DNA from: Octopus sinensis
Taxonomy: Eukaryota
NCBI RefSeq assembly: GCF_006345805.1
Contig: NC_043000.1
Location: forward strand, 93,992,001-94,056,000
Direction of reading: 5' to 3'
Length of the DNA stretch: 64,000 nucleotides
The notes below the pieces were generated by a model. That model saw only the letters and a program-made list of their open reading frames with translations. It had not been told where the DNA came from and ran no database searches. The position numbers and the translations under genes were made by a program. Below, piece by piece: positions 2,212-53,870 of this stretch (position 1 is the stretch's first letter; every line of letters begins with the position of its first letter).

Positions 2212-2728
2212 ATATTTACATTATAGTAATTAATAGATAATTTGAATGTATAATTTCAGATTTAAATAAATTTTAATGATTATAAGAGTATGCTTATATT
2301 CAAACTGTCTTGCATCTTAATACCTGAATCATAGTAATATATATACTAATAGTTTGTGGGCGTTTGTATATGTGCATGCGCCGTATGTGTACATGTGTAC
2401 ATGCATACATACATAAGTACATATGTGCATACGTACATAGACTTATTATGTATATATATATGTGTGCATGTGTATGAATGCATGCACTTGCATATATACT
2501 GAATATATATATATATGTGTGTGTGTGTGGTGTGTGTGTGTGTATGTACGTACATACAAGCATTTAAGTATTGCAAGTTTTTGGATAATTTTCGATTTTA
2601 AAAGTTGGCATCTTTTTATTGCCGACGAGGGGCTGTGTCTGCGCAGTAGATTTTGAAAACATTAGGATGTATAAACAAGAGGCACATAGTTGATTGCCTC
2701 GTGTTTTATATATTTAATCTAAGGTGTA

Positions 2729-2801
2729 CCTGCTGACGAAAATTTCGGCTAGCGAATATTATTTATTTGGTAAACTAAAATAAGAAACCAATTGGTCCAG
2801 G
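2729..2801 (+). ncRNA. Type I hammerhead-ribozyme-like motif with palindromic stem III
   Basis: cctg-CTGACGA-(44 nt forming two hairpins)-GAA-ACCAATTGGT-C-cagg. Stem I is cctg/cagg, both core boxes are canonical, and the putative GUC site ends at 2797. Confidence 0.6.
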
Positions 2802-5276
2802 AAACTAGATGGTTAAAGCTTTTATTTTTTCATTTCGTTCCTGTCGGGATTTTATCCCTAATTTTGTGGTTATAGAACCTAGCTGTTCTTTCTAGCATGT
2901 TGAATCCTATAAGTGGATCCCTTATGTGTTAAAATGTACACTATATATATATATATATATATATATATATATATATATATATATATATATATATATACTA
3001 TATATATATATATATATAATATATATATATATATATATATGTATAATGTATGTATGTTATGCAGGGCAGGCTTCACAAAACGTGAACAACATGAAATACG
3101 AGACAAAGTTGGGTATGCGAACAACAAGAGAAACAAATAGAAAACAAGACAAGTAACATAAAGAACGACCCTTCATCAGTTGTCGGTTGTTTATCTACTC
3201 CATTTTCGAGCAATTAACGACAGTATGAGGCTCACGCGAACCAAAATAAAATTTGGGATTTTTCGGAGGGTAAAAGCTAGTAACAAAAGAAAACAGCACA
3301 GTGGAGACATACAATAAACCAAATGAAAACAAACATATATATATCATACATATATATATACATACATATATATATATATATATATATATATATATATATA
3401 TATATATATATATATATATATATGTATATGGATATATATATATATATATATATATATATATATATATTATATATAATTATATATATATATATATATATAT
3501 GTATATGTATATCTATATATATATATATATATGTATATATTATCCACAGATTAAATTTTAAGTTATAGCTAAACCAGTATTCAAAGCCAAAGTGACGATG
3601 CCACAAATTAATGCTGTTATTTTCGAGTGCAATGGCCTTTTTCATATCACTTAACATCTATTTGTCAAGTAAATTACGATGTAGAATACTTACCGGGGCG
3701 TGATGATATAACGAAATATAGTCATTATAATAAGGAACAACACGGAAAAATATGTACGTGAATATCAAGCTTGGTTCTTAATAATAAGTGTAGAATTACT
3801 GAGTCGTAAATACTTTAGACAAATGGCGTAGAATTTTAGTGTTTGAATAATATACGTGAATGTAAAATACTGTTAGGAAGAATTAAAATAAATTATTTAT
3901 GTCTTTTGTTTTTGTGGGTTATTTTTGTCTTCATTTACACACAAAAACATACACGTACGTACATAGACATACATACACAGGAACACAGACGCACACACAC
4001 AAAAGCACATACTTCTGCACCAACAAACGTATTTGGCGTGTTTACTTAATACTAGATTAAGTATTAAAATGCGTCAAATTACATTGTTTTATTTCTAGAA
4101 GTGAATCTTTCAAAAATGATGCTCTTATTTTCTTTTGAGATGTCTGAGTACACACACACACACGCACACCACACCACACACACACACACACACACACACA
4201 CACACACACACACACACACACACACACACACACACACACACATTATATATATATATATATTTATATATAAATTTAAATTTATGTAAGTAAACTTACGTAA
4301 TACGGTAATAGTGAAACATGTATGCGAATAATACCTATTTTTATTGCTTTTTCTTCTGCCTTGCTCGATTACGTTTTGGTTGTTTTGCTAAATTTTTATT
4401 GAGAACATTTTTTAGTGGTAAGACCATAGCGGATCTATTTCTAGCATAAGGGTGTCCACATAGTGTTTCCTTCTAATATGTATATATTATATATTATATA
4501 TATATATATTATATATATGCATGTGCCTATATGTATATATACATTCGTGATATATATATAATATATATATATATATACAAAAATATACATGTTGCGTGTG
4601 TGTGTGTGTATATTTATATGTGTGTGTGCACACATACATACACACACACATAGACCCACATACACAACTAGATATGAGCATCTCTCCAATCTTCCATTTT
4701 TACAACAGTGACTCTACTCGAAACGTTTGTTCAATTCTTACACAAAAGACGTGTTTGTTATTTTTATCATCTATGACAATTACATTTTATCATCTATCTT
4801 AATAACGCTACTATAATACCTCCTTATTATACACCATGTTAAAGTTTTCAGTTTTATAAATAAAACCGAAAACATGATAAATAAAATACACAGATAAATA
4901 AACAAATAGAAATAAATAACTATATAAGTTTTTTTTATTAATTTAAAAGATTTTAAAAATGTATTATTATTATTATTATTATTATTATTACTAGTATTGT
5001 TGTTATACATACATACAAGCATACGTAATGATAATAATAATAAGTGGATGTAAACACATGAACAAAATAAGAATAAACAAAACAACAACAAAAACAAATT
5101 ACACGAACGTATATAAACAGAAGATACAAATATTACAGGCATCCCCCCTACACACACACTAACTAAACATAGACGCACATAGAGATATAAGCATGCGCAC
5201 ATGAAGACATACAATAGAAATACAACATGGCTGGCGGTTAGTAAGGAGAGACACAAATATGAAAGAAGAAAACAAA

Positions 5277-51450: not shown

Positions 51451-51964
51451 TTTGATCTCTAAGTGTTTGTACGCATGTCTTTGGTGTAATTCTTACAGAT
51501 TCGTGCCATTTTCTAACATGATATTACTGGATTTTATAACTTCTTCACTCACAAGGTGGCCTTTGTATACTTTTCTGAACTAAATTTCATGCTGTTTTCT
51601 TTTTCTAAACGCATACAATGTGTGTAGTAATGTATTGAACTGTTTAACATCTGTAACATATAGTTTCAGATAATCCATATACAAGATATAGTTAACTTAT
51701 CCAATAGCACTTTTGCCTGCATGTAGGTTGGTTTCACATGATAGGGATTGATTTCAGTTTTACAATTCCATCTTTATATCTTTACGACTGCTTTCTATAT
51801 TTGATGTACCAAGGTAAATATCGACAAAATCAATCAACAATGGTAAATGTATTGATGGAGGGAAACTCTGACGGAAACTATGACAATTGCGTTCTGGTAA
51901 CCAATTCATACATTCCATACCATTTGTTTTTCGTATAGAATCATTGTAGAGTCAATAGAAATAC

Positions 51965-53870
51965 CAGAGTAAAATCAAAATCAAAACAGGAGCAACAAAT
52001 AAGGATACAAAGGTAGTATAATTATGATATGAAGAAAGATAATGGGATGTGCTAAACGCTTCGGAGAGTGGTCCTTTGTCTAGAATCATCAATGATGCAA
52101 TATCTCAGTAGAGTTGCAAGAAAACCTAGAATAGGAAAAAAATCAAATCAGAATCAACGAATATGGATACATGGATACAATGTCAGTACAATTATATTGT
52201 GAGGAATGGTGATAGAGAAGGAAGTATTAAACACTTCGGATAGTGGTTGTTTGTCTAGAAAAGAAATGAGAACAGAAAAGAGAAAATAACAAACAAGAAA
52301 AGAAATGTTGAAATAAAGGCATTGATTTCAGTGGACCAGTAGGATGGGTGGCAAAAAGGAAGTGGGCAGTTTGAATGTGGGTTGAAGGGTGATTGCAACA
52401 TGATGTTTGCGAAATGAGTTAAATGAATGTGTGAAGTTGTAATAAAGTATGTGCGTTTTTGTGTGCGAGTAAGATGTCAAGTGTGTTGGTAGATTGTGTT
52501 GAGAGAGTAGAAAGTCAAGTATGCGAGTAGGTTGTGTGTTTAAGTGTAAGAGTATGTGTGTGCGCGCAGGAATAGGAAGTAAACATGAGCTAGTTTTGTA
52601 CGGTTGGTGTAAGCAGAGAATGAAACGTGTAGGATGGGGGCGAAATGTGTGGACAGGTTGACCGGCTGTGTGTGTGTATATGTGCAAGAGGATAGATGTA
52701 AACGTGGTATGCTACTGTGTGAGTGGAATAAATAAAATATATTTTTATGTATATGTGATTGTGTGATAAGTGTTTAATGCAGTATGTGTATACGTGAGTG
52801 GAAACGGAGGAAATCGTATGTTGGACGCTTATCAGTGAATGGGAATATAAGGAGAAGGTAGTGTTCTTAGAGGATAGCAACTTGGTTATTAATCCCTGTG
52901 AGATTAAGTGTATTTAACTGGCAAATTAATTGTTGTTCATGGTGCAATCGGGAGTGGGAAGTTACGTGGTGCTGTGCAATGCTGCAAATATCGAGATGCG
53001 GGTTGACGTGACAGGAAGAACTGAAATGACAGGCTACAAACCAAAGTGATTCTACGTTGTTACACCAGACGTCCAAAAGCTATTTCCCAAAATGACCACT
53101 CGATAGACAACTAGTTTCTTCGATATACAATAAGCCGTAGAAATGACTTTTTATGCATTTGATGATGTTCATGTACAGCTGAAATACTGAAATACTCGCT
53201 GACTCAAAAAGCTGAGCCAAGTTCAACTAAGGATCAGATATTCTGAAAGAAAAAATTACATATTTTCATGTTTCAGTAGGAGTAAAAGAAAATAAGAAAC
53301 GATCATTTTCAGATGTGGCGAGGGATCAAGGAATTGCAGGGAGGTCACACATATTACGGTCGCATCGGAAGAGAAGAGGATTTCCAAAAAAGCATGGCAA
53401 AAAGCTGGGTCAGATAGGATGAAACGAAAACTCTATGCAGGGGTCGAGGAACTTTTTTTTTTAACCAAATACCCCAAAATATATTTATTTACTCCACTTG
53501 ATTTGAAAGCAAGAAAATCATAGATTCTTTGAATGCAAAACGTTTATTGAATCTATCTTATTGAGTCTACTTATATGATTCATTCTTTTTACACATCCTT
53601 TACATTGGACAGATACAGTGTTGCCAAAAGAAAACAAATTCTGTCCTAACAAGGAACACGTTTTCTATACAATTTTACTTATGTCTAATGACTCCTCATT
53701 ACCCCCAAGAATTTAATTTATACTTCACTTGGAGTAATTTAACTGGGTTCGCTGACCGTTGCTCTATAGGTTGGTACGTTGAGAGATAATGTGGTAAGAC
53801 AGTAGGTGAGAGGGGACACAAACTGATGGTGGTGGAACGGACACAAGAATTAAAGGTGGGATTGTAGTTT
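51965..53870 (-). mobile_element. Neptune-like PLE relic: linker, GIY-YIG, 3' region and two tandem pLTR-like repeats
   Basis: LSDPAF..FRCDRNMCDL, NIIKCI..GLLYIEET, VACHFSSSCH..RLHHEQQLICQLNTLNLTGIN. Repeats at about 51971-52088 and 52137-52262. Confidence 0.78.
53438..53761. mobile_element. hAT-type MITE inserted in the PLE
   Basis: Ends caggggtcgaggaac versus reverse complement caacggtcagcgaac. Imperfect TSD ctctatg / ctctatag. Confidence 0.7.

What the first reader, a model, noticed from the sequence alone, without database searches (positions are those of the whole stretch)
2564..52262. Population of (TA)n-embedded mini-elements with minimal hammerhead-like motifs and fold-back ends
Seen: many short, mutually unrelated inserts, mostly between (TA)n tracts, share a GAAA(A) + short palindrome + UH motif. 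Examples are ACCAATTGGT (2787 +; 33272 -), ACATGT (4315 +; 7041 +), ACCGGT (8440 +), ACGT (10325 -), ACAGTTGT (28775 -), ACACGTGT (36530 +) and ACTAGT (43461 -). Most are preceded by a stem II, and several have a CUGANGA-like box (CTGACGA, CTGATGA, CTGTGGA, TTGGAAA/TAGAAAA, TAGACAA). Established: Penelope-like elements and animal retrozymes carry minimal type I hammerheads whose palindromic stem III is thought to work as a dimer, and PLE copies often have inverted partial pLTRs. Inference: this genome hosts many distinct PLE-derived or retrozyme-like non-autonomous families that insert into (TA)n and explore non-canonical cores. Most copies here look decayed.
Basis: partly seen in the sequence, partly recalled or inferred. 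Interest (0 to 1): 0.72.

Follow-up and report, generated by a model that had tools for sequence, protein, structure and literature searches.

The report
Penelope retroelement ends with variant hammerheads
Most of these short inserts are cut-off tail ends of known Penelope-like jumping genes, plus a few non-coding relatives likely copied by them, and they carry a hammerhead-shaped RNA motif predicted to cut itself in pairs; several abundant families have unusual core letters whose effect on cutting is untested.

Summary
Mostly real, mostly a known kind. Eight of nine cited sites lie in dispersed repeat families; seven family consensuses form a type I hammerhead (stem I, 7-nt core, stem II, GAAA, palindromic stem III, UH). 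The sites at 43461 and 52053-52257 are single-locus. 'Non-autonomous mini-elements' is only partly right: four families (7041, 8440, 10325, 33272) are 5'-truncated or inverted 3' ends of Penelope-like elements (PLEs) coding for reverse transcriptase or GIY-YIG endonuclease; three (2787, 4315 and an uncited one at 11060-11417) are ORF-less 355-541 bp head-to-tail units. 3' ends next to (TA)n, inverted copies and one-sided tails are textbook PLE. Odd cores are family-wide, not decay: U3-A8, A3-U8 (kept across sister families with compensated stems), U3.G8, U4C, A6U (15,476 exact matches against 3,984 with A6), GYAAA, and stem II of 44-106 nt. Cleavage is untested, and 5' ends show no pile-up at the cut site. 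The scan has noted the same picture, A6U, A3-U8 and long stem II on other DNA, including this genome. I did not find A3-U8 or A6U in the papers I could search; the main PLE-hammerhead variant paper was not held.

The parts
2564..2941 (+). E1: 5'-truncated copy of an ORF-less, about 480-bp head-to-tail unit; hammerhead at 2729-2801 (family core UUGANGA with U3.G8, 44-nt stem II, stem III ACCAAUUGGU, C17); this copy's stem II is decayed
   Evidence: period 479 and 482 in L043, L050; 14 of 25 fetched copies keep the whole core
4277..4478 (+). E2: 5'-truncated copy of an ORF-less 541-bp unit; keeps only the 3' half of the hammerhead (4313-4327); family core CCGAUGA (U4C), U.U at the base of a 45-nt stem II
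   Evidence: period 541 in L118, longest stop-free frame 78 aa
6751..7097 (.). E3: fold-back of two 5'-truncated 3' ends of a Hydra-like PLE (direct 7013-7097, inverted 6751-7008 with a longer tail); both arms lack the core box; family core is canonical CUGAGGA with a 55-nt stem II
   Evidence: 24 other copies identical over at least 85 nt among the 40 scored
7357..8545 (.). E4: inverted (7357-7737) plus direct (about 7740-8545) 3' ends of a GIY-YIG PLE; last endonuclease codons at about 7746-7810; hammerhead at 8415-8449 (+) and near 7421-7455 (-); family core UUGAAAA (U3-A8); about 40-nt tail on the direct copy only
10237..10406 (-). E5: 3' end of a Neptune-like PLE between (TA)n tracts; complete hammerhead 10320-10355 with core CUGUGGA (A6U), extra A before a 4-bp stem II, stem III ACGU
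   Evidence: this end follows the endonuclease in 17 of 20 loci; 15,476 exact U6 matches
11060..11417 (-). E9 (not cited): whole copy of an ORF-less unit of about 355 bp; intact hammerhead 11283-11325, core CCGAAGA (U4C), stem III ACUGCAGU
   Evidence: (3,451 candidates)
11979..12336 (-). Second E9 copy (hammerhead 12202-12244), identical to the first, inside a local duplication of about 920 bp
28711..28956 (-). E6: old copy (67-77% to others) of a family with canonical CUGAUGA, U.U base, 106-nt stem II, stem III ACAGCUGU; this copy reads GGAA; no ORF link found
   Evidence: only 1 of 15 copies keeps the whole core
33045..33304 (-). E8: 3' end of a Neptune/Nematis-like RT + GIY-YIG PLE; hammerhead 33266-33304 with core AUGAAUA (A3-U8), 2-bp stem II, GYAAA in place of GAAA, stem III ACCAAUUGGU
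36408..36619 (+). E7: old repeat (68-76%) with conserved GAAACACGUGUC; no core box found next to a matching stem I
43456..43495 (-). Cited site: hairpin plus GAAAACTAGTC, single-copy at this sensitivity; not supported as a member
52053..52257 (-). Two similar 30-nt motifs (TAGACAA box), only at this locus; not supported as members

Best explanation
These inserts are the 3' ends of several Penelope-like retroelement families, plus three non-coding tandem units likely copied by the same enzymes, and each family carries a hammerhead-shaped RNA motif predicted to cut only as a dimer. Shown: four families continue upstream into RT and/or GIY-YIG coding sequence; 3' ends are fixed and mostly abut (TA)n; 5' ends are variable; inverted copies and one-sided tails occur; seven consensuses fit type I hammerhead topology with self-complementary stem III. 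Inferred from published PLE work: the GIY-YIG domain nicks (TA)n, the RT starts at one of two internal sites about 50-250 nt downstream of the hammerhead and usually stops early, which leaves short direct or fold-back stubs. The ORF-less units (E1, E2, E9) would be copied in trans from longer-than-unit transcripts, which gives their partial tandems. Inferred: core variants were fixed in master copies and spread with them. The 3-8 pair stays paired (C-G, U-A, A-U, U.G), so the fold is likely under selection. A6U, U4C and GYAAA likely slow cleavage, which is tolerated because cleavage is likely not rate-limiting for insertion.
For: Coding links: E3 ends a 541-aa RT-GIY-YIG frame whose relatives carry PF26215/RVT_1; E8 follows RVT_1 (E 4.4e-6) and GIY-YIG (above cut-off) frames; E5 lies 483-694 bp after the endonuclease in 17 of 20 loci; E4 follows an endonuclease C-terminus in L175, L176 and the window. 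(TA)3+ within 30 nt of the 3' end in 92 of 138 copies of seven families against 14% background. Core-blind ranking by stem I + stem II pairs puts the core box first in 5 of 7 families, tied first in E4 and second in E1, among 34-194 offsets. A full descriptor gives 44 hits in 577 kb against 0 in each of 5 shuffles, 11 of them outside the families it was built on. E8's sister families (endonuclease 67-85% identical) keep A3-U8 while stems I, II, III, N7 and H17 change and stay paired. Tail: 7 of 15 inverted E9 pieces end near unit position 310, direct copies at 355 or beyond. Published: PMC8557442, PMC3846280, PMC4209133, PMC11167929.
Against: No cleavage or expression evidence. Whole-motif folds of single copies do not beat shuffles (z -1.9 to +0.5, 8 of 8), and E4 and E8 have 2-bp stems. 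No autonomous partner was found for E1, E2, E6, E7 or E9. E7 has no core. Fetched copies are the best 15-30 matches, so they are biased to young, long copies. The descriptor was written after the families were seen, so its 33 focal hits are circular. Clade labels rest on motifs read by eye, not a tree. Pfam found nothing on the E3 frame itself.
Confidence: 0.85

Rival explanations
1. All inserts are independent non-autonomous, retrozyme-like mini-elements that spread through hammerhead-cut circular RNAs.
For: E1, E2 and E9 are ORF-less 355-541 bp units in head-to-tail partial tandems, one full E9 dimer (L247), GC 35-44%, close to the 150-450 bp tandem retrozymes of PMC7229834; a 2026 preprint derives retrozymes from PLEs.
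Against: Four families are ends of coding PLEs. E9 shows the two-site PLE tail, and no array longer than about two units was seen in 18 loci. No 5' junction falls exactly at the cut site (nearest 134, 141, 148 against 139); TA-abutting 5' ends within 30 nt of the site are 1 locus for E9 and 4 for E3, none at the site.
Confidence: 0.12
2. The altered cores (A6U, GYAAA, U4C) are dead ribozymes that hitch-hiked with successful PLE lineages; nothing in the motif is maintained now.
For: A6C cuts poorly in Mg2+ (PMC3088659 section 8; PMC7151607). Hammerhead mutants do not affect PLE insertion in vitro and no RNA reads end at the site in Anolis (PMC11167929). In E8 the GY step has the same length as sister forms with N-G-AAA, so it may be a G12U substitution. 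Each variant may be a single founder event.
Against: In the U6 lineage all four bases occur at free position 7 and loop II varies while stems and other core letters in the pattern hold (first 100 listed; the pattern itself fixes those letters). A3-U8 persists over divergent sister families with compensated stems. E8 loop II varies in length and sequence around a fixed GC/GC stem. Natural U4C, U13a and U10.1-U11.1 variants are known to stay active.
Confidence: 0.3
3. The motifs are chance matches in AT-rich, repeat-rich DNA.
For: About 61 of 90 loose hits are expected by chance; 43461 and 52053-52257 have no family; no hammerhead family is among the 150 Rfam rows shown of 288.
Against: Family conservation, core-blind placement, 44 against 0 descriptor hits, 19,947 against 0 and 221 against 0 pattern matches versus reversed controls.
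Confidence: 0.03

Closest known systems
Minimal type I hammerheads in pLTRs of metazoan PLEs (Cervera and De la Pena 2014, PMC4209133; parts 1-2 of 4 read)
   Same: Short stem I, extra nucleotide between 9 and 10.1, palindromic stem III for dimer action, many unrelated families per genome, mostly solo truncated copies, U3-A8 variant, opposite-strand pairs 100-700 bp apart.
   Different: The text read names no A3-U8, A6U, U3.G8 or GYAAA cores; helix II there is 7-8 bp, here the stem II domain reaches 44-106 nt in E1, E2, E3, E6.
Hydra-clade PLEs, including Hydra-1_Obim (Craig et al. 2021, PMC8557442; passages, section 11, supplement part 2 and search hits)
   Same: E3: DKT motif, no CCHH, CxxC and CxH at the endonuclease end, (TA)n insertion, canonical core. 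The U.U pair at the stem II base in E2 and E6 is common in File S2's Hydra hammerheads.
   Different: E3 lacks the CxCX5C linker. Hydra stem II domains in File S2 span about 12-25 nt; the two long ones listed (about 53 and 37 nt) are in spike-moss PLE-X and marked as deviating.
Neptune/Nematis-type C-terminal EN+ PLEs (motif definitions in PMC8557442)
   Same: E8 and E5: RT, CX2-5CxxC linker, GIY-YIG with CCHH-type residues; E8 also DKG and GxKF; microsatellite bias.
   Different: Clade not tested by a tree; cores are A3-U8/GYAAA (E8), U3-A8 (E4), A6U (E5).
Metazoan non-LTR retrozymes (PMC7229834 passages; bioRxiv 10.64898/2026.07.22.740005 part 1 of 5) and non-autonomous PLEs such as MRC1 (PMC8557442)
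   Same: E1, E2, E9: ORF-less, low-GC, head-to-tail units with one type I hammerhead per unit.
   Different: Mostly 1-2 units with PLE-type inversions and tails, not long arrays; minimal or variant rather than canonical hammerheads; circular RNA not shown.
Natural hammerhead core variants (Perreault et al. 2011, PMC3088659 section 8)
   Same: U3-A8, U4C, a change at position 6, an insertion inside GAAA (U13a), U10.1-U11.1 and 2-bp stem II are known.
   Different: There they are rare; here whole lineages of hundreds to over 15,000 copies carry them, and position 6 is U and the 3-8 pair A-U.

Membership tests
EN+ Penelope-like element (E3, E4, E5, E8) | RT followed by C-terminal GIY-YIG endonuclease upstream of the terminal repeat | tested here: met
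   E3; E8; E5 (EN in 17 of 20, RT similarity in 6 loci); E4 endonuclease C-terminus only
EN+ Penelope-like element | 5' truncation, partial tandems, inverted 5'-truncated copy | tested here: met
EN+ Penelope-like element | Optional tail at one end only | tested here: met
   E9 about 47 nt, E4 about 40 nt, E3 about 145 nt
EN+ Penelope-like element | RT groups with PLE RTs in a phylogeny | not tested
   No reference PLE proteins were available as tool sequences; only motif comparison by eye and homolog list
Hydra clade (E3) | DKT in place of DKG; CCHH absent; CxxC and CxH near the EN end; (TA)n target | tested here: met
Hydra clade (E3) | CxCX5C linker and RWK motif | tested here: not met
   No cysteine linker before GIY-YIG in L120; L119 reads RWL. 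Filed as Hydra-like only
Neptune/Nematis clades (E5, E8) | CX2-5CxxC linker plus CCHH in the EN | tested here: met
   E8 CGRSNCGTC, C-x2-C and two His; E5 CPRCYTC, CSLC and two His; the two clades were not told apart
Type I hammerhead ribozyme | Stem I - 7-nt core - stem II - GAAA - stem III - UH - stem I topology | tested here: met
   7 of 8 cited families plus E9; E7 not met
Type I hammerhead ribozyme | Canonical core C3 U4 G5 A6 N7 G8 A9, G12 A13 A14 | tested here: not met
   Met in E3 and E6 only; variant in E1, E2, E4, E5, E8, E9
Type I hammerhead ribozyme | Self-cleavage after H17 | not testable with these tools
   Only assembled contigs were available
PLE dimeric minimal hammerhead | Self-complementary stem III | tested here: met
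   All positions pair between two copies in 7 of 7 consensuses, 4-10 nt
Non-LTR retrozyme (E1, E2, E9) | ORF-less tandem unit with one hammerhead per unit | tested here: met
   ORF length computed for E2 and E9, E1 judged from the tandem junction
Non-LTR retrozyme (E1, E2, E9) | [quoted passage not shown] | tested here: inconclusive
   Two hammerheads in tandem in L118 (E2), L247 and L248 (E9); none longer among loci fetched
Non-LTR retrozyme (E1, E2, E9) | Expression as unit-length linear and circular RNA | not testable with these tools
   No raw RNA reads offered

The most novel reading that the evidence does not exclude
Octopus PLE lineages keep the hammerhead fold while rewriting its catalytic core: the 3-8 pair takes four forms, A6 is U in over 15,000 copies, one lineage reads GYAAA, and stem II grows to 100 nt. 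Either these are working natural cores that standard descriptors miss, or the fold is kept as an RNA dimerisation or RT-EN loading signal after cleavage was lost. Sister lineages that differ at one core letter (A6 versus U6; GAAA versus GYAAA on the same A3-U8 background) would make the open question of what PLE hammerheads do directly testable.
Probability: 0.3. Interest if true: 0.62.

Novelty: new variant of a known kind. Interest (0 to 1): 0.36.

Why it matters
The elements themselves are ordinary PLE debris. What may matter is the ready-made natural series of hammerhead cores in one genome. The role of PLE hammerheads is still open (PMC8557442 suggests they may be dispensable; PMC11167929 found cleavage unnecessary for insertion in vitro). 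Matched sister lineages with canonical and altered cores allow a direct test, and descriptors with fixed CUGANGA and short stem II undercount these motifs.

Tried and rejected
Rfam scan: no hammerhead family among the 150 of 288 rows shown, all microsatellite-driven. Pfam on 16 window frames: no RVT_1 or GIY-YIG; tblastn with PLE proteins listed no PLE hit among the window's best three, and 49900-53100 matched none of the loci then held, so the idea of a decayed PLE ORF there was dropped. PF26215 is not in the searchable library. Two E2 copies 4 kb apart (L116) are not pLTRs around an ORF. RNA: no RNA holder listed; four runs guessed as RNA hold contigs over the E3 element but cannot show ends or expression. 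5' ends at the cut site: none found; these tests see only TA-abutting or tandem junctions. E7's core was sought up to 200 nt upstream without success. Lunse et al. 2017 was not held by DOI or PMC id; I know it only through a review and recall. Literature searches for A3-U8/C3A/G8U (20 of 36 listed), A6U and long stem II showed no paper describing these in PLEs; subscription papers and the Cervera 2014 supplementary figures were not seen and may hold them.
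Full report
Setting. The window lies in a 2.72-Gb animal genome, likely an octopus: the only named relatives of one element's protein are Octopus proteins. It is rich in microsatellites. Rfam showed no hammerhead family among 150 of 288 rows.

Observation. The nine palindromic words are present, but 33272 reads CAAA, 28775 reads GGAA, and at 7041 the true stem III is ACATGTGT. 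The loose motif is enriched over 40 shuffles (90 against 61+/-6; the stricter GAAAC form 8 against 1.9), yet most loose hits are chance. I searched the genome with each insert. Eight are dispersed families. The 43461 and 52053-52257 sites are single-locus. An uncited family, E9 at 11060-11417, has 3,451 first-look candidates. Candidates are not copy numbers, and I aligned only the best 14-30 loci per family.

The motif. Seven consensuses have type I hammerhead order: E1 UUGANGA, E2 CCGAUGA, E3 CUGAGGA, E4 UUGAAAA, E5 CUGUGGA, E6 CUGAUGA, E8 AUGAAUA; E9 has CCGAAGA. Stem III is self-complementary in 7 of 7. Positions 3 and 8 can pair in all of them, in four ways. Stem II domains are 44, 45, 55 and 106 nt in E1, E2, E3, E6 and fold as closed hairpins (z -3.0 to -5.7). 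Because I first placed cores by eye, I ranked all upstream offsets by stem pairing alone: the core box came first in five families, tied first in E4 and second in E1; E7 gave none. A descriptor allowing long stem II found 44 hits in 577,286 bases of 147 sequences and 0 in each of 5 shuffles; 33 are the focal families E1, E3, E5 (circular), 11 are not, four of these with 42-63 nt stem II; its thresholds missed E2, E4, E6 and E8. Against this, whole-motif folds of eight single copies do not beat shuffles. The whole family core survives in 10-20 copies of 14-30 for seven families and in 1 of 15 for old E6. In the window, E2 and both E3 arms lack the core box through truncation; E1, E4 and E6 are decayed; E5, E8 and E9 match their family core.

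What carries it. [quoted passage not shown] It has DKT, no CCHH, and terminal CxxC and CxH, as described for Hydra PLEs (section 11 of PMC8557442), and resembles the Hydra alignment by eye, but lacks the cysteine linker; Pfam found nothing on it directly. E8 follows RT and GIY-YIG frames with a CX4CxxC linker. E5 lies 483-694 bp after a GIY-YIG segment in 17 of 20 loci picked by the endonuclease alone. E4 follows an endonuclease C-terminus, whose last codons are in the window. In contrast E1, E2 and E9 loop back on themselves after about 480, 541 and 355 bp with no coding sequence between. No partner was found for these, nor for E6 and E7.

Ends. (TA)3+ lies within 30 nt of the 3' end in 92 of 138 copies, against 14% of random windows; before the query start it lies in 22 of 138, though that point is often inside the element. 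Fold-backs at 6751-7097 and 7357-8545 are inverted 5'-truncated copies. A tail sits on one arm only: 7 of 15 inverted E9 pieces end near position 310 while direct copies reach 355 or more; E4's direct copy runs about 40 nt further than its inverted copy. This is the published PLE layout (PMC3846280 passages; PMC8557442), explained by two internal RT start sites (PMC11167929 passages). 5' ends show no pile-up at the cut site.

Variant cores. An E5-type pattern matches 19,947 places, 0 for the reversed control; 15,476 have U6 and 3,984 have A6. All four bases occur at position 7 among the first 100 U6 rows. The E8 pattern with GYAAA matches 213 places, with loop II of 3-4 variable letters; with the two letters free it matches 303 and shows GG, AG, CG and GA forms, so GY may be an insertion or a G12 substitution. 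Loose ends of public contigs pointed to sister families; a pattern from them gave 221 matches against 0. In 20 such loci A3-U8 is kept with canonical GAAA, while stem I (AAAGCA/UGCUUU), stem II (GUA/UAC), stem III and H17 differ from E8 and still pair; endonuclease identity to E8 is 67-85% where present. This is the best covariation evidence and fixes the register.

Mechanism. Shown: anatomy above. Inferred: EN nicking of (TA)n, internal RT priming, early stop, in-trans copying of the ORF-less units, and weak dimer-dependent cleavage. I judge the 3-8 swaps likely active, and A6U and GYAAA likely slow or dead.

Comparison. Minimal dimeric hammerheads in PLEs, many families per genome, the extra base before stem II and U3-A8 are published (PMC4209133 parts 1-2). 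U4C, A6C, U13a and U10.1-U11.1 are known natural variants (PMC3088659; PMC7151607 passages). The U.U base is usual in Hydra hammerheads, and long stem II appears in spike-moss PLE-X (supplement). Non-autonomous PLEs and retrozymes are known. A 2026 octopus repeat annotation lists PLEs but has no occurrence of 'ribozyme' or 'hammerhead' (PMC13282606 passages). My searches showed no PLE A3-U8, A6U or long stem II paper, but Lunse et al. 2017 was not held and the Cervera supplement was not read. Earlier notes of this scan report the same picture and variants on other DNA; they are unchecked, and I first opened them after forming my reading. A G3-C8 family is reported there and was not tested here.

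Verdict. A real population of a known kind, misdescribed as wholly non-autonomous, with lineage-wide core variants that are worth a bench test. Interest 0.36.

Noticed in passing
window 10584-12420: Local tandem duplication of about 920 bp holding a SINE-like repeat and a whole E9 unit; the two E9 copies are identical, so it is recent or an assembly artefact.
   Followed up: partly
window 5939-6133, 19621-19995, 31403-31913, 54470-54951: Further fold-back elements, two of them next to or around (TA)n; families not searched.
   Followed up: no
window 4720(+), 32778(+), 59381(-), 59353(-), 53118(-): More GAAAC + palindrome + H sites that may be older PLE ends; none passed the full descriptor.
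   Followed up: no
window 34256-34585 (-) and about 27500-28560 (-): Mariner-type transposase remnants; PF01359 on the first, the second judged by eye.
   Followed up: partly
window 45100-47700 (-): Decayed non-LTR retrotransposon with zf-RVT.
   Followed up: no
L070, L049/L176, L172: Three further hammerhead types with canonical cores and 42-63 nt stem II in flanks of unrelated loci; L072 has another U3-A8 core.
   Followed up: no
L201-L203: An A3-U8 PLE stub repeated at least three times at a 577-bp period together with its TA tract and flank, 99% identical: DNA-level duplication that mimics a retrozyme array.
   Followed up: partly
L197, L210: E5-type ends inserted directly in the (TA)n tract at the 3' end of A3-U8 elements, so different PLE families stack in one microsatellite.
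   Followed up: no
window 14660-15120, 39770-40140 and others: Many copies of a very abundant SINE-like repeat; the label is recalled, not from a call.
   Followed up: no
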